The notes beneath the pieces were generated by a model that searched no databases, had not been told where the DNA came from, and was given only the letters and a program-made list of their open reading frames with translations. Made by a program: the position numbers and the translations under genes. DNA of 64,000 bases from Escherichia phage vB_EcoM_ESCO47: the sequence record OM386662.1, one strand, 5' to 3'. Below, one piece after another: positions 20,979 to 62,358 of the stretch (its first letter is position 1; each line of letters begins with the position of its first letter).

Positions 20979-22796
20979 ATGATTAAAAATGAAATTAAAG
21001 TATTATCAGACGTAGAACATATTAAGAAACGTAGTGGTATGTATATTGGTTCTTCGGCTAAAGAAGCACATGAGCGTTTTTTGTTTGGTAAATATCAACA
21101 AGTTGAATATGTTCCTGGTCTGGTTAAATTAATCGATGAGATTATTGACAACTCGGTTGATGAAGCTATTCGTACATCATTTAAGTTCGCAAATAAAATT
21201 GATGTGCAAATTAAAAATAATCAAGTTTCGGTGGAAGATAACGGACGTGGTATTCCTCAAGGTTTAGTTACCGACCAAACAGGTGAACAAATTCCTGGGC
21301 CTGTAGCAGCCTGGACTATTCCAAAGGCCGGCGGTAACTTTGGCGATGACTCTGAACGCAAGACCGGTGGTATGAACGGCGTCGGGAGTAGTTTAACTAA
21401 TATCTTCTCTACGTTGTTTACAGGCATCACGTCAGATGGCGAAAATGAAATCACTGTTAATTGTTCAAACGGAATGGAAAACAAATCATGGTCTTCTAAG
21501 AAATCTAAAGGTAAAGGAACTAAAGTAATCTTCACTCCTGATTTCTCTTCATTTGAAGAGCATAATTTATCTCAAATTTATTTAGATATTACTTTAGACC
21601 GACTTCAAACATTGGCAGTCGTTTATCCTGATATCAAGTTCACATTTAATGGTAAAAAGGTTGATGGTAATTTTAAACGATTTGCTAAACAATTTGGCGA
21701 AGATAACATCATTCAAGAAAACGATAAAGTGTCAATCGCATTCACAACATCGCCTGACGGTTTTCGACATTTGACGTATGTGAACAACATTCATACTAAA
21801 AATGGTGGACATCATGTTGAATGTGTAATGGATGATATCTGCGAACATCTTTTGCCCGGTATTAAAAAGAAATATAAGGGTATTGAGGTAACTAAAGCTC
21901 GTGTTAAAGAATGTCTCACGATGCTGATGTTTATTCGTGATATGAGCAACATGCGTTTTGATTCTCAGACTAAAGAACGTTTAACGTCAACGTATGGTGA
22001 TATTCGTAATCATATCCAATTAGATGCTAAGAAAATTGCTCAGTCACTTCTTAAAAATGAAGCTCTGATTATGCCTATTGTTGAAGCAGCATTAGCTCGT
22101 AAATTAGCAGCAGAAAAGGCCGCCGAAACTAAAGCAGCTAAAAAGGCCACTAAAGCAAAAGTTCATAAGCATATTAAAGCTAATCAATGTGGTAAAGATG
22201 CAGATACGACATTGTTCTTAACAGAAGGTGATTCGGCAATTGGTTATCTCATTGATGTTCGTGACCGTGAACTACACGGCGGATTCCCATTACGTGGTAA
22301 GGTGATGAATAGCTGGGGTATGTCATATGCTGATATGATGAAGAACAAAGAGCTCTTTGATATCTGTGCTATCACAGGTCTTATTCTCGGTGAAAAGGCA
22401 GAGAACACGAACTATCGTAATATCGCAATTATGACCGATGCCGATCATGACGGTCTTGGAAGTATCTATCCGGCTTTGCTTGCTTTCTTTAGTAATTGGC
22501 CTGAATTGTTTGAACAAGGACGTATTCGCTTTGTTAAAACTCCGGTAATTATTGCACAAATTGGCAAAACACAAAAATGGTTTTATACTGTAGCTGAGTA
22601 TGAAGAAGCTAAAGAATCATTACCAAAACACGGTATTCGATATATTAAAGGACTTGGTTCACTTGAAAAATCCGAATACCGTGAAATGATTCAGAATCCA
22701 GTTTATGACGTAGTTAAATTGCCTGAAAACTGGAAAGAGTTGTTTGAAATGTTGATGGGTAATGACCCGGATCTTCGTAAAGAATGGATGTCCTAA
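20979..22796 (+). CDS. 39: DNA topoisomerase II large (ATPase) subunit, fused gp39+gp60 equivalent
   Basis: 605 aa GyrB-like; continuous frame with no bypass gap or inserted element. Confidence 0.92.
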   Translation: MIKNEIKVLSDVEHIKKRSGMYIGSSAKEAHERFLFGKYQQVEYVPGLVKLIDEIIDNSVDEAIRTSFKFANKIDVQIKNNQVSVEDNGRGIPQGLVTDQTGEQIPGPVAAWTIPKAGGNFGDDSERKTGGMNGVGSSLTNIFSTLFTGITSDGENEITVNCSNGMENKSWSSKKSKGKGTKVIFTPDFSSFEEHNLSQIYLDITLDRLQTLAVVYPDIKFTFNGKKVDGNFKRFAKQFGEDNIIQENDKVSIAFTTSPDGFRHLTYVNNIHTKNGGHHVECVMDDICEHLLPGIKKKYKGIEVTKARVKECLTMLMFIRDMSNMRFDSQTKERLTSTYGDIRNHIQLDAKKIAQSLLKNEALIMPIVEAALARKLAAEKAAETKAAKKATKAKVHKHIKANQCGKDADTTLFLTEGDSAIGYLIDVRDRELHGGFPLRGKVMNSWGMSYADMMKNKELFDICAITGLILGEKAENTNYRNIAIMTDADHDGLGSIYPALLAFFSNWPELFEQGRIRFVKTPVIIAQIGKTQKWFYTVAEYEEAKESLPKHGIRYIKGLGSLEKSEYREMIQNPVYDVVKLPENWKELFEMLMGNDPDLRKEWMS

Positions 22797-60757: not shown

Positions 60758-61090
60758 ATGTCTGAAGTACAACTCCCAATTCGTGCTGTTGGTGAATATG
60801 TTATTCTGGTTTCTGAACCCGCTCAAGCAGGTGATGAAGAAGTTACCGAATCAGGACTTGTGATTGGTAAACGTGTTCAAGGTGAAGTTCCTGAACTATG
60901 TGTAGTTCATTCTGTAGGTCCTGATGTTCCTGAAGGTTTCTGTGAAGTTGGTGATTTGACTCCACTACCAGTTGGACAAATTCGAAATGTTCCACATCCA
61001 TTTGTGGCTTTAGGACTTAAACAACCTAAAGAAATTAAACAGAAATTTGTCACTTGTCATTACAAAGCAATCCCGTGTCTTTATAAGTGA
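60758..61090 (+). CDS. 31: co-chaperonin gp31 (GroES-like)
   Basis: 110 aa; matches T4 gp31 as I recall it. Confidence 0.9.
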
Positions 61091-61098
61091 TATAAATA
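61091..61098 (+). promoter_or_regulatory. late promoter motif (TATAAATA) downstream of gene 31
   Basis: Exact TATAAATA immediately after the gene 31 stop, upstream of the rIII-like gene. Confidence 0.5.
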
Positions 61099-61216
61099 AT
61101 AATATGAATTGAGTTCCAATTCTATGAGGTAGTCTACAACTGAGAGATCTGTCGAAAGAAGATGAAATTCAGAAGAACGTGACTACCAAGTTTTAATCTC
61201 TAACGAGAATTTTTAA

Positions 61217-61465
61217 ATGATTAAACAATTACAACACGCTCTCGAACTGCAACGCTCTGCATGGAACAACGGTCACGAAAACTACGGTGCATCAATTGAT
61301 GTTGAAGCCGAAGCACTGGAAATCCTGCAGTATTTCAAACATCTGAATCCTGTCCAAGCTGATCTTCGTGATGTTCTGGCTCAGAAAGATGAACTGAAAT
61401 ATGCTAAGCCTCTGGCTTCTGCCGCACGTAAAGCAGTTCGTCATTTTGTTATTACTTTGAAATAA
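61217..61465 (+). CDS. rIII: rIII-like lysis inhibition accessory protein
   Basis: 82 aa; position after gene 31; MIKQLQHALELQR... resembles T4 rIII as I recall it. Confidence 0.65.
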   Translation: MIKQLQHALELQRSAWNNGHENYGASIDVEAEALEILQYFKHLNPVQADLRDVLAQKDELKYAKPLASAARKAVRHFVITLK

Positions 61466-61628
61466 TTGCTATCATGCGTCAGCAAAAGGTTAGCTGTGTA
61501 AGTCATGGTAGGTATGATGACAGGTTTATGGTTATCCTGTCGGTAAATATACAAAACCTATGTTCCCCTCGAGGGCTTACGCAGGCAATGTCAATAAGTC
61601 CTGCATTTTCATTTAAAGAGAATTTATA

Positions 61629-61808
61629 ATGGCAAAACAAGCTAAAGCAAAGAAAGCAGTTGAAAAGAAAGTTGATGGTACCTCTAAACGCGCTGGATAC
61701 AAGCGTGGGTCGAACTCTCGTATTAATCAAACCGTTGAGAAGATCATGCGCAGAGCACGTGCAGTTCTTCGAGATGATGCTTCTCGTTTTGGAAAGGTTG
61801 TTGCATAA
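61629..61808 (+). CDS. small basic protein (59 aa)
   Basis: Lys/Arg-rich; followed by a strong terminator; weak RBS; below the ORF-track cutoff. Confidence 0.4.
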   Translation: MAKQAKAKKAVEKKVDGTSKRAGYKRGSNSRINQTVEKIMRRARAVLRDDASRFGKVVA

Positions 61809-61813
61809 TTTTA

Positions 61814-61836
61814 GGGAGACTTCGGTCTCCCTTTTG
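61814..61836 (+). terminator. rho-independent terminator
   Basis: GGGAGAC-TTCG-GTCTCCC then TTTT; same hairpin sequence as at 47685. Confidence 0.75.
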
Positions 61837-61872
61837 TGCGTTTAGGGCAGAAAAAGTTTAAAAAAAAAAGAT

Positions 61873-61902
61873 GTTTACTCTCCTGTAGGATGTGTTACTA
61901 TA
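61873..61902 (+). promoter_or_regulatory. early promoter-like element
   Basis: -35 GTTTAC 61873-61878, -10 TACTAT 61897-61902; ATG at 61943. Confidence 0.5.
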
Positions 61903-61942: not shown

Positions 61943-62314
61943 ATGAACACTATCAATTTAAATGCTACAATTAAATGCCGTGACCATGATGGATATAAAT
62001 CTCAAGTTGTTAACGAGTTACAGTGGATGGTTCGTTCAGTTCAAGGTGATGTGGTTTATTGTACAACTCCTGATGGCCCTTCAGACGATTTTTGTTATCA
62101 TATCGAAATCGAAAACTTTTTCACTGGTGAAATTTACCGTCTGAATTCTACAGTTTATGGCTGTATTCGTTCTAAAACTTACGAAGATGAAGAAACTGGT
62201 TACTCTGAAGATGTTGTATGGTACGAAAACGCCAGAAATCGCGCAGAGACATTAATCGAGAAGATTAAAGCAAAAGGTGTTATTGATTCAGCTAAGTGGA
62301 CAAAAATCAAATAA
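61943..62314 (+). CDS. hypothetical protein (123 aa)
   Basis: Promoter element and GGAG RBS upstream. Confidence 0.5.
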   Translation: MNTINLNATIKCRDHDGYKSQVVNELQWMVRSVQGDVVYCTTPDGPSDDFCYHIEIENFFTGEIYRLNSTVYGCIRSKTYEDEETGYSEDVVWYENARNRAETLIEKIKAKGVIDSAKWTKIK

Positions 62315-62318
62315 AAAT

Positions 62319-62358
62319 GTTTACTTTGGTACAGGATATGTTATTATATACCTGTACC
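62319..62358 (+). promoter_or_regulatory. early promoter-like element with inverted repeat
   Basis: -35 GTTTAC 62319-62324, -10 TATTAT 62342-62347; arms GGTACAGG 62328-62335 and CCTGTACC 62351-62358; ATG at 62389. Confidence 0.5.

What the first reader, a model, noticed from the sequence alone, without database searches (positions are those of the whole stretch)
61466..61628. 163-bp non-coding interval with paired segments downstream of the rIII-like gene
The region has no convincing ORF, is relatively GC-rich for this genome, and contains complementary segments (GACAGG...CCTGTC at about 61523-61551; palindromic CCCTCGAGGG at about 61568-61577). It may encode a small RNA or a structured leader for the downstream small basic protein.
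Basis: seen in the sequence. Interest (0 to 1): 0.3.

Follow-up and report, generated by a model that had tools for sequence, protein, structure and literature searches.

The report
Conserved structured RNA before gene 30.9
The 163-base gap between the rIII gene and the small basic gene 30.9 of this T4-like phage is a conserved folded RNA (a hairpin, a pseudoknot and two more hairpins). It is found in every related phage examined that keeps the 30.9 start, matches no described RNA family, and most likely controls expression of gene 30.9.

Summary
The window comes from a T4-like phage (Tequatrovirus). The interval lies between rIII (61217-61465) and gene 30.9 (61629-61808).

- The fold z-score is -0.82.
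- A 6-bp stem occurs in 45% of shuffles.
- GC is 39.3% against 38.0% for the window.

Comparison with 45 related loci from at least seven Tevenvirinae genera shows a conserved structured RNA on the + strand. It has four parts:
- an internal-loop hairpin (61469-61511);
- a hairpin whose stem sequence differs between genera (61581-61604).

Both pseudoknot helices and the 5' hairpin covary (0 of 500 shuffles reach the observed score). The 91-nt core is 83-95% identical between phages whose rIII fourfold-degenerate sites are only 51-79% identical. The 51-codon ORF in the gap is not conserved. Rfam, tRNA, promoter and terminator scans find nothing.

The most likely role is a cis-acting leader for 30.9 translation. 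A processed trans-acting RNA is not excluded. The function is inferred, not shown.

The parts
61217..61465 (+). rIII (lysis-inhibition accessory protein, 82 aa). This is the upstream gene, and the RNA element begins right after its stop codon.
   Evidence: ORF list. 87% aa identity to T4 rIII. Annotated as rIII in T4 and relatives.
61469..61511 (+). 5' hairpin 'MD'. Outer stem CTATCATG (61469-61476) pairs with CATGGTAG (61504-61511). Inner stem CAGC (61480-61483) pairs with GCTG (61493-61496). The loop is AAAAGGTTA (61484-61492). There is a conserved asymmetric internal loop, CGT on the 5' side and TGTAAGT (61497-61503) on the 3' side.
   Evidence: In 7 distinct sequences, 92.9% of cells are paired. 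Five of 12 pairs change on both sides; 0 of 500 shuffles reach this and slid controls give 2 or fewer. There are 8 G-U cells and 0 A-C cells, which points to + strand RNA. RNAalifold predicts the same hairpin. In L024, L034, L035 and L051 a hairpin keeping the same internal-loop motif and a covarying outer stem sits just before the 30.9 ribosome-binding region instead (the full motif with the same inner stem only in L024).
61519..61541 (+). Pseudoknot stem 1 (P1) with its loop. GACAGG (61519-61524) pairs with CCTGTC (61536-61541). The 11-nt loop is TTTATGGTTAT (61525-61535).
   Evidence: In 37 distinct sequences, P1 cells are 88% paired and 4 of 6 pairs change on both sides. Stem variants include GAC..AGG/CCTGTC, GGC/GCC, GTCGTGG/CCAGAC, GTCATAG/CTAGAC and GTGG/CCAC.
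61542..61554 (+). Conserved single-stranded A-rich linker, GGTAAATATACAA here and CGTTAAATATCCAAAAC as consensus, between P1 and the 3' strand of the pseudoknot.
   Evidence: Present in all 41 distinct spacers and nearly invariant in alignments A4 and A8. It is the only good match in the 64-kb window.
61530..61558 (+). Pseudoknot stem 2 (PK). Loop bases GGTT (61530-61533) pair with AACC (61555-61558). This stem has only 4-5 bp in this phage and 7-11 bp in other genera.
   Evidence: Loop and tail covary in register: GGTAG/CTACT, TTAGTAGTT/AACTACTAA, GTGAG/CTCAC, TGTTCAAGGTT/AATCTTGGGTG and CGTTGTTGGTT/AACCAACGGTG. Four of 7 pairs change on both sides. Permuting loops against tails equals the observed complementarity in 1 of 5000 trials.
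61565..61580 (+).
   Evidence: GT(A/T)CCC-loop-GGGCTTG is present in nearly all spacers, with loops TCGA, TTGA, TAGA, TTTGA, TTAG and others. Only one double change was seen (CCTC/GAGG in L036), so the helix is plausible but rests mainly on conservation. RNAalifold predicts it.
61581..61604 (+). Hairpin P3. GCAGG (61581-61585) pairs with CCTGC (61600-61604). The 14-nt loop is CAATGTCAATAAGT (61586-61599).
   Evidence: A hairpin closes at this position in every one of 26 distinct sequences, with at least 7 different stem sequences: GCAGG/CCTGC, GCGGG/CCTGC (G-U), AACTGG/CCAGTT, GAGAG/CTCTC, GGGAGC/GCTCCC, GGGAAC/GTTCCC and GGTGGAG/CTCCAC. The loop CAATGYCAATAAG is kept even where the stem differs (L028, L030, Proteus phage L054).
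61605..61631 (+). Translation initiation region of 30.9. ATTTTC (61605-61610) can pair with GAGAAT (61618-61623), which holds the weak Shine-Dalgarno sequence GAG. The start codon is at 61629-61631.
   Evidence: The hairpin appears in the single-sequence MFE. Support among T4-like relatives is weak, because the register shifts or pairs are lost. In other genera a conserved TTTCTCC...GGAAGA anti-SD/SD pair occupies the same place.
61629..61808 (+). Gene 30.9: 59 aa, 18 Lys/Arg against 5 Asp/Glu, function unknown.
   Evidence: ORF list. 95% identical to T4 gp30.9. PHROG 1427 'unknown function' and no Pfam family. No solved relative.
61814..61838 (+). Terminator-like hairpin GGGAGAC-TTCG-GTCTCCC followed by TTTTGTG. 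It ends the transcription unit that contains the element.
   Evidence: Read directly from the sequence. The homologous stem-loop is annotated in phage TuIa record AJ621579. The simple terminator scan did not call it.

Best explanation
The interval is the intercistronic 5' leader of gene 30.9. It is most likely transcribed as part of the rIII-30.9 message on the + strand, and it folds into a fixed set of domains:
- an internal-loop hairpin;
- an H-type pseudoknot that presents a conserved A-rich single strand;
- a small G-C hairpin;
- a hairpin placed just upstream of a weak ribosome-binding site.

Shown here: the domains exist, are under strong purifying selection, keep their helices through compensatory changes, and always accompany the 30.9 start.

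Inferred: the folded leader uncouples 30.9 from rIII translation. It sets or switches 30.9 initiation by occluding or exposing the Shine-Dalgarno sequence and start codon. This would happen through the segment 3' of P3, and possibly through the conserved P3 loop, whose GYCA can pair with UGGC of AUGGC. A trans-acting factor probably binds the pseudoknot and linker. The strongly basic gp30.9 itself is the obvious candidate, by analogy with the autogenous repression known for T4 gp32, gp43 and ribosomal proteins.
For: - Synteny and persistence: an rIII-30.9 gap of 120-416 bp persists in Tequatro-, Dhaka-, Jiaoda-, Kanagawa-, Mosuguk-, Karam- and Gelderlandvirus.
- Occurrence: a covariance model of the pseudoknot finds exactly one copy, on the + strand between rIII and 30.9, in all 45 loci that keep the 30.9 start. 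It finds none in the 7 loci without it and no second copy in the 64-kb window.
- Covariation, pseudoknot: 8 of 13 pairs change on both sides. 70 cells show a double change against 29.5 +/- 3.9 in shuffles (0 of 500 reach the observed value), and slid controls give 30 or fewer. The loop/tail permutation test gives 1 of 5000.
- Covariation, 5' hairpin: 5 of 12 pairs change on both sides, with 8 G-U cells against 0 A-C cells.
- Covariation, P3: the hairpin is present in all sequences, with at least 7 stem sequences.
- Selection: the core is 83-95% identical against 51-79% at rIII fourfold-degenerate sites.
- Not coding.
- No internal promoter or terminator above background.
- L034 lost the body of 30.9 but kept the leader and the first codons.
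Against: - No transcript, structure-probing or expression data are available, so the direction of regulation and any trans factor are conjecture.
- The single sequence does not fold better than shuffles.
- In this phage pseudoknot stem 2 has only 4-5 bp.
- The SD-sequestering hairpin is poorly conserved among T4-like relatives.
- The P3-loop/start-codon duplex is only marginally better than shuffles (window 6.8%, T4 0.9%) and shows no compensatory change.
- More distant phages have a 44-aa 30.9-like gene 10 nt after rIII with no leader, so 30.9 can be expressed without it.
- Related phages carry extra structured modules of 90-136 nt in the same gap. That is more RNA than a simple translational operator seems to need.
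Confidence: 0.55

Rival explanations
1. The domains are non-coding RNA genes in their own right. They would be cut out of the rIII-30.9 transcript, as T4 tRNAs and RNAs C and D are cut from theirs. They would act in trans, for example as decoys or sponges for host or phage RNA-binding proteins or nucleases. Their position before 30.9 would be incidental.
For: - The gap is a mosaic of independently folding modules that are gained, lost and re-ordered between close relatives (M0, A, B, E, MD).
- Module B (136 nt) has 15 of 37 pairs with compensatory change. It is 90-98% identical across genera whose rIII proteins are 62-84% identical.
- The MD hairpin of the window occurs at a different place in L024-type leaders.
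- 30.9 can exist without any leader.
Against: - No promoter or terminator delimits a separate RNA.
- The core (pseudoknot, P2, P3) always directly abuts the 30.9 ribosome-binding site and is absent wherever the 30.9 start is absent.
- There is no similarity to E. coli sequences that would suggest mimicry or antisense targets.
- No processing data exist.
Confidence: 0.25
2. The pseudoknot plus linker is the aptamer of a riboswitch that senses a small molecule and switches 30.9 translation.
For: - The topology resembles small pseudoknot riboswitches such as preQ1-I: a hairpin, an A-rich tail, and a 3' end that pairs with the loop just upstream of a ribosome-binding site.
- The unpaired linker is nearly invariant, as ligand-binding cores are.
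- In LilPanda-type leaders an alternative pairing (GGAAGAACGUG with CAUGUAUUUC) could act as an anti-anti-SD.
Against: - No Rfam riboswitch model matches, even at E <= 10 on the 176-nt stretch.
- The linker is about twice as long as in preQ1-I.
- The downstream gene gives no hint of a metabolite.
- No conserved mutually exclusive pairing was found in the T4-like form.
Confidence: 0.08
3. The interval encodes the 51-aa peptide of ORF 61474-61629, whose stop codon overlaps the 30.9 start (TAATG).
For: The ORF exists and ends in a TAATG overlap typical of coupled phage genes.
Against: - The start codon is ACG in most relatives.
- The frame breaks after about 12 codons in L011 and L014.
- T4 differs by three 1-bp indels.
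- The peptides are unrelated to one another.
- No Pfam or PHROG family matches.
Confidence: 0.01
4. The conservation reflects a DNA-level signal (a promoter for 30.9, a replication or recombination site) or merely a spacer that has diverged little.
For: - Two weak sigma-70-like matches lie at 61438-61475.
- GGGCTTG faintly resembles a MotA box (my own reading of the sequence).
Against: - Promoter-like matches are at background level: 7 found against 5.5 expected.
- No -10 element is conserved, because the P3 sequence differs completely between genera.
- Compensatory changes, and the G-U without A-C asymmetry seen in the 5' hairpin, are signatures of RNA rather than DNA.
- The core is more conserved than synonymous sites next door.
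Confidence: 0.04

Closest known systems
Autoregulatory pseudoknot leader of T4 gene 32 mRNA (and similar translational operators, e.g. the E. coli rpsO/S15 pseudoknot)
   Same: It is an H-type pseudoknot in the 5' leader of a T-even phage gene, followed by A/U-rich RNA leading to the ribosome-binding site. The product of the downstream gene is a nucleic-acid-binding-type (basic) protein, so an autogenous loop is conceivable. This comparison rests on established knowledge and on the review PMC3014915.
   Different: - The locus and sequence are different.
- The pseudoknot here sits among three further hairpins.
- Binding of gp30.9 or any other protein is untested.
- The gp30.9 function is unknown.
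preQ1-I riboswitch (Rfam RF00522)
   Same: Same topology: a short hairpin, an A-rich 3' tail, the tail end pairing with the hairpin loop, located upstream of an SD sequence.
   Different: - No covariance-model match.
- The linker is 13-15 nt rather than about 6-8 nt (my recollection of the family).
- The loop sequence is different.
- There is no queuosine-related gene context.
- No ligand evidence exists.
Mobile regulatory cassettes of T4-type phages (promoter-early stem-loops, PeSL; Arbiol, Comeau and Krisch 2010, recalled from memory)
   Same: These are intergenic, modular, stem-loop-containing units that are shuffled between T4-type genomes. The rIII-30.9 gap shows the same mosaic gain, loss and re-ordering of modules.
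   Different: - No early-promoter consensus lies inside the modules.
- The modules here are complex RNAs with covariation, not a promoter plus a single stem-loop.
T4 stable RNAs C and D of the tRNA cluster
   Same: These are small non-coding phage RNAs of unknown function, processed from a longer transcript (PMC3014915).
   Different: - The locus is different.
- No tRNA-like feature is present.
- Processing of the rIII-30.9 spacer has not been shown.

Membership tests
Any Rfam 15 family (4227 models) | Covariance-model match at or near the gathering score | tested here: not met
   No hit falls in 61466-61628 at E <= 10 in the 2-kb scan. On the 176-nt stretch the only hit is a spurious snoRNA C-box match of 13.9 bits against a gathering score of 46. 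No hits fall in the homologous gaps of seven relatives.
preQ1-I riboswitch | Match to RF00522 | tested here: not met
   No match at E <= 10.
preQ1-I riboswitch | Hairpin plus A-rich tail whose 3' end pairs with the loop (H-type pseudoknot) next to the SD sequence | tested here: met
   P1 and PK are supported by covariation, and an A-rich linker lies between them. This is a resemblance in topology only.
preQ1-I riboswitch | Control of queuosine or preQ1 synthesis or transport genes | tested here: not met
   The downstream gene is 30.9, a 59-aa basic protein of unknown function.
Independent small-RNA gene | Own promoter upstream and intrinsic terminator downstream | tested here: not met
   No terminator-like site was found, and promoter-like matches are at background level. 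There is no T4 late-promoter consensus TATAAATA inside the gap (sequence). Processing from a longer transcript cannot be tested here.
Protein-coding gene | Reading frame and start codon conserved in relatives | tested here: not met
   The start is ACG in most relatives, frameshifting indels occur, and the peptides are unrelated.
tRNA / tmRNA | ARAGORN detection | tested here: not met
   0 genes in the whole window.
Cis-regulatory structured 5' leader (general class) | Lies directly upstream of, and on the same strand as, one conserved gene, and co-occurs with it | tested here: met
   There is one copy in each of the 45 loci with the 30.9 start and none in the 7 loci without it.
Cis-regulatory structured 5' leader (general class) | Conserved secondary structure supported by compensatory changes | tested here: met
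Cis-regulatory structured 5' leader (general class) | Demonstrated effect on expression of the downstream gene | not testable with these tools
   This needs reporter fusions or ribosome profiling.
T4 gene 32-type autogenous operator | The protein product binds its own leader | not testable with these tools
   No binding data exist. There is no solved relative.

The most novel reading that the evidence does not exclude
The rIII-30.9 spacer of T4-like phages may be a hot spot of exchangeable, independently folding non-coding RNA domains. These are the pseudoknot core plus the MD hairpin in this window, and modules A, B, E and M0 in relatives, T4 itself included. On this reading they are released from the transcript and act in trans, or sense a ligand or protein, for example as decoys against host RNA-targeting defences. 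They would be the first such regulatory RNAs in the T4 group. A 2010 review stated that no riboswitch or trans-acting regulatory RNA had been functionally characterised from T4 (PMC3014915).
Probability: 0.2. Interest if true: 0.85.

Novelty: new variant of a known kind. Interest (0 to 1): 0.6.

Why it matters
T4 is among the best-studied viruses. [quoted passage not shown] This is such a candidate:
- It is under stronger constraint than the neighbouring protein-coding gene.
- It is present in every Tevenvirinae genus examined here that has a full-length 30.9 (seven named genera, infecting enterobacteria and related hosts such as Proteus and Pectobacterium), T4 included.
- Its helices are proven by covariation.
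- It is absent from Rfam.

It gives a concrete, mutable target for asking how the unknown but conserved gene 30.9 is controlled. The surrounding mosaic of RNA modules raises the question of whether phages exchange RNA domains the way they exchange accessory genes.

There is also a practical consequence. Many GenBank records call spurious ORFs across this RNA, or label gp30.9 a "glycogen branching enzyme". An RNA family model would correct that.

Tried and rejected
- **Rfam and tRNA scans:** Rfam at permissive thresholds on the window, on the interval alone and on seven related loci found nothing. The tRNA/tmRNA scan found nothing.
- **Single-sequence folding:** not better than shuffles on either strand, so it cannot carry the argument.
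- **Coding reading of ORF 61474-61629:** rejected.
- **Internal promoter or terminator:** rejected. By eye, MotA-box-like and late-promoter-like strings are neither well spaced nor conserved.
- **Second copies or a regulon in the window:** none. The best other hit (21748-21795, - strand, E = 0.27) is antisense inside a 605-aa ORF.
- **Similarity to E. coli genomes:** none.
- **Extension of P1 by UGAU/GUUA, proposed by RNAalifold on close relatives:** not kept in other genera.
- **SD-sequestering hairpin in T4-like phages:** register not conserved.
- **P3-loop/start-codon duplex:** marginal, with no covariation. Kept as a lead only.
- **Strand from G-U against A-C counts in the pseudoknot:** inconclusive (13 against 11). 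It is clear only for the 5' hairpin (8 against 0).
- **Structure prediction of gp30.9 from the alignment:** No solved relative exists.
- **Literature:** nothing describes the rIII-30.9 spacer in the held library. The T4 genome review and the 2006 Virology paper of the Nivinskas laboratory are not held. A 2003 paper in Biologija on rIII and 30.9 expression is cited in PMC9409239 and its text was not seen, so prior description cannot be fully excluded.

Full report
**Context.** The window is from a T4-like phage. The finding lies in a run of + strand genes: dCMP deaminase, 31.1, gp31 (60758-61090), rIII (61217-61465), a 59-aa basic ORF (61629-61808) and 30.8-like ORFs. Megablast finds 742 phage records, mostly Tequatrovirus, at 80-95% identity over 61100-61900. 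In T4 (NC_000866) the homologous genes are rIII and 30.9, separated by 244 unannotated bp.

**Check of the observation.** The gap is 163 bp.
- GACAGG (61519-61524) and CCTGTC (61536-61541) exist, as does CCCTCGAGGG (61566-61575).
- The interval is not GC-rich: 39.3% against 38.0%, the 60th percentile.
- It does not fold better than shuffled sequence (z = -0.82 on the + strand, -1.84 on the - strand).
- A perfect 6-bp stem is expected in 45% of shuffles.

On its own the sequence therefore proves nothing. The only ORF (61474-61629, 51 aa, TAATG overlap with 30.9) has no family and is not conserved. Its start is ACG in most relatives. The frame changes after about 12 codons in L011 and L014. T4 differs by three single-base indels.

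**Known families.**
- Rfam (4227 models) gives nothing in the interval at E <= 10. This holds in a 2-kb scan, on the 176-nt stretch alone (only a 13.9-bit snoRNA C-box artefact) and in seven related loci.
- No tRNA or tmRNA is present.
- Promoter-like matches are at background (7 against 5.5 expected) and no terminator-like site is found.
- There is no similarity to 5,426 E. coli genomes.

**Relatives.** blastn finds the interval in 764 phage records, once per genome. The 3' 115 nt are present in nearly all of them, and the 5' 48 nt are covered in about a third (267 of 764 records cover at least 80% of the query). tblastn with gp30.9 finds 1006 records across many Tevenvirinae genera. I fetched:
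- seven annotated loci: T4, Klebsiella LilPanda, Kosakonia 305, Pectobacterium PM2, IME08, EcWhh-1 and Enterobacter PG7, plus Proteus ABTNLPp2 later;
- 45 IMG/VR loci found through an rIII alignment.

In every locus with a full-length 30.9, a non-coding gap of 120-416 bp separates rIII from 30.9.

**The gap is a mosaic.** It is built from sequence modules that are gained, lost and re-ordered. One core is always present.

**Anatomy in the window (coordinates).**

1. MD hairpin, 61469-61511.
   - The outer stem is CTATCATG/CATGGTAG and the inner stem is CAGC/GCTG.
   - The loop is AAAAGGTTA. The internal loop is conserved and asymmetric (CGT against TGTAAGT).
   - Across 7 distinct sequences, 92.9% of cells pair and 5 of 12 pairs change on both sides. 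Examples are CATG/CATG to CACG/CGTG, CAGC/GCTG to CAGA/TCTG, and CTATCATG/CATGGTAG to GCTCTATG/C(A/T)TAGAGC.
   - 0 of 500 shuffles reach this, and slid controls give 2 or fewer.
   - Eight G-U cells against no A-C cells indicate + strand RNA.

2. Pseudoknot C1, 61519-61558.
   - P1 is GACAGG/CCTGTC with an 11-nt loop.
   - A nearly invariant single-stranded linker follows (consensus CGTTAAATATCCAAAAC).
   - Loop bases GGTT then pair with AACC downstream.
   - A covariance model built on P1 finds one copy, on the + strand and in this position, in all 45 loci that keep the 30.9 start. It finds none in the other 7 loci and no second copy in the 64-kb window.
   - On the 37 distinct sequences, 79.7% of cells pair (shuffles 67.0 +/- 1.4) and 8 of 13 pairs change on both sides.
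   - 70 cells show a double change (shuffles 29.5 +/- 3.9; 0 of 500 reach it). The covariation score is 0.344, against at most 0.154 in slid controls (the MAFFT alignment gives the same picture).
   - The second stem is short here (4-5 bp) but reaches 7-11 bp elsewhere and changes in step: GGTAG/CTACT, TTAGTAGTT/AACTACTAA, GTGAG/CTCAC, TGTTCAAGGTT/AATCTTGGGTG and CGTTGTTGGTT/AACCAACGGTG.
   - Permuting loops against tails reaches the observed mean complementarity in 1 of 5000 trials.

3. P2, 61565-61575. The arms are CCC/GGG around a variable loop, followed by conserved CTTG(C/A). It is conserved, but only one double change was seen (L036, CCTC/GAGG), so the helix is plausible rather than proven. 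The perfect palindrome is peculiar to this phage.

4. P3, 61581-61604.
   - The stem is GCAGG/CCTGC with a 14-nt loop.
   - Every one of 26 distinct sequences forms a hairpin here, with at least seven unrelated stem sequences and inserts of up to 48 nt.
   - The loop CAATGYCAATAAG is retained in Tequatro-, Dhaka- and Gelderlandvirus and in L028/L030, even where the stem differs.

5. Initiation region, 61605-61631. ATTTTC can pair with GAGAAT, which holds the weak SD. Among T4-like relatives this pairing is not well kept. In other genera a conserved TTTCTCC...GGAAGA anti-SD/SD pair occupies the same place.

**Selection.** The 91-nt core (61514-61604) is 83-95% identical to its homologues in ten relatives. 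Their rIII genes are 73-87% identical at the nucleotide level and only 51-79% identical at fourfold-degenerate sites. The non-coding RNA is thus more constrained than the adjacent gene.

**Interpretation.** It is established that this is a conserved, multi-domain RNA structure on the coding strand, tied to the start of 30.9.

The tie is shown in three ways:
- It is present in all 45 loci with that start.
- It is retained in L034, where the body of 30.9 was replaced but its first codons kept.
- It is absent where 30.9 is absent, or where a 44-aa 30.9-like ORF follows rIII by 10 nt.

With no internal promoter or terminator, the simplest reading is a structured intercistronic leader that governs 30.9 initiation. 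The conserved linker presented by the pseudoknot is a likely binding platform. The strongly basic gp30.9 (18 K/R against 5 D/E) is the natural candidate for autogenous control, as with T4 gp32. That last step is inference.

Two further leads are weak:
- The P3 loop GYCA can pair with UGGC of the start region. In T4 this gives an 11-bp duplex at -8.4 kcal/mol, matched by 0.9% of shuffles. In the window it gives -5.7 kcal/mol, matched by 6.8%.
- In LilPanda-type leaders an alternative helix could free the SD.

**Rivals.**
- The modular, exchangeable nature of the gap argues that the domains might be RNA products in their own right, processed from the transcript. So does the elaborate extra RNA in relatives: module B, 136 nt, 15 of 37 pairs compensatory, 90-98% identical across genera, single copy in 407 records; and module A in T4 itself. 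I give this 0.25.
- A ligand-sensing riboswitch is possible on topology (preQ1-I-like) but has no model match and no gene-context support (0.08).
- The coding, DNA-signal and neutral-spacer readings are contradicted by the data above.

**Novelty.** No Rfam family and no paper in the searchable library describes this RNA. [quoted passage not shown] Older work from the Nivinskas laboratory on rIII and 30.9 expression (cited in PMC9409239) could not be read, so some prior mention cannot be excluded.

I class it as a new RNA family of a known general kind (structured leader or pseudoknot operator). There is a modest chance that it represents something less ordinary.

**Verdict.** The GC argument and single-sequence significance do not hold. 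The interpretation as a structured RNA or leader is supported. The mechanism remains inferred.

Noticed in passing
L002 ~912-1047; also L003, L006, L007, L009, L017, L018, L025, L026, L032, L033, L035-L042 (not in the window): Module B is a structured RNA of about 136 nt that lies between rIII and 30.9 in many other Tevenvirinae. Fifteen of 37 predicted pairs show compensatory changes. It is single-copy in 407 phage records and 90-98% identical across genera, far above the flanking genes. It has no Rfam match.
   Followed up: partly
L001 (T4) ~1409-1497 and ~1381-1404: T4 itself carries two further modules in its 244-bp rIII-30.9 gap. One is an 89-nt nested-stem RNA (module A, which contains GGAG) with compensatory changes in relatives: GCCGT/ACGGT to GCCAT/ATGGT, and ACTGTC/GACAGT to ATTGTC/GACAAT or ACTGTT/AACAGT. 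The other is a short hairpin (M0) right after the rIII stop codon.
   Followed up: partly
L002 794-830, L004 1016-1055, L033 ~1400-1440: Another hairpin module has a conserved loop TGTACG and covarying stems: CCATG/CATGG, CTCTG/CAGAG and CTTTG/CAAAG. It sits at different positions in the gap in different phages.
   Followed up: no
L002 1132-1161, L003 1126-1155, L007 ~1132-1161 and others: Outside the T4-like group, the 30 nt before the 30.9 start are a conserved ATGTATTTCTCCAAAATGGAAGA. This is either an anti-SD/SD hairpin or an 8-codon upstream ORF (MYFSKMED). It is in frame with 30.9 in some phages (the LilPanda annotation starts there), ends in a stop codon in others, and is out of frame in others.
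   Followed up: partly
L034 1307-1933; L047 1135-1269; L048 1134-1268: In L034 the first ~16 codons of 30.9 are fused to an unrelated 208-aa ORF while the leader is kept. In L047 and L048 a 44-aa 30.9-like ORF starts 10 nt after rIII with no leader at all.
   Followed up: no
window 61629-61808 and GenBank records: Many deposited genomes annotate gp30.9 as '1,4-alpha-glucan (glycogen) branching enzyme, GH-13-type'. Others call 'hypothetical proteins' across the non-coding RNA. These are evident annotation artefacts.
   Followed up: no
window 61091-61098; 61814-61838; ~61872-61900; ~62309-62345: The T4 late-promoter consensus TATAAATA lies immediately after the gp31 stop codon. A terminator-like hairpin GGGAGAC-TTCG-GTCTCCC plus TTTT lies after 30.9. 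Two early-promoter-like GTTTAC...TA(C/T)TAT sites lie before the next two ORFs. This matches the features annotated in phage TuIa record AJ621579.
   Followed up: partly
window 61497-61503 with 61573-61579: The 3' internal loop of the MD hairpin (UAAGUC) is complementary to GGCUUA just 3' of P2, giving 6 bp. The same holds in IME08 (UAAGCC with GGCUUG). This could be a long-range contact that competes with P2, or it could be chance. It was seen by eye and was not tested statistically.
   Followed up: no
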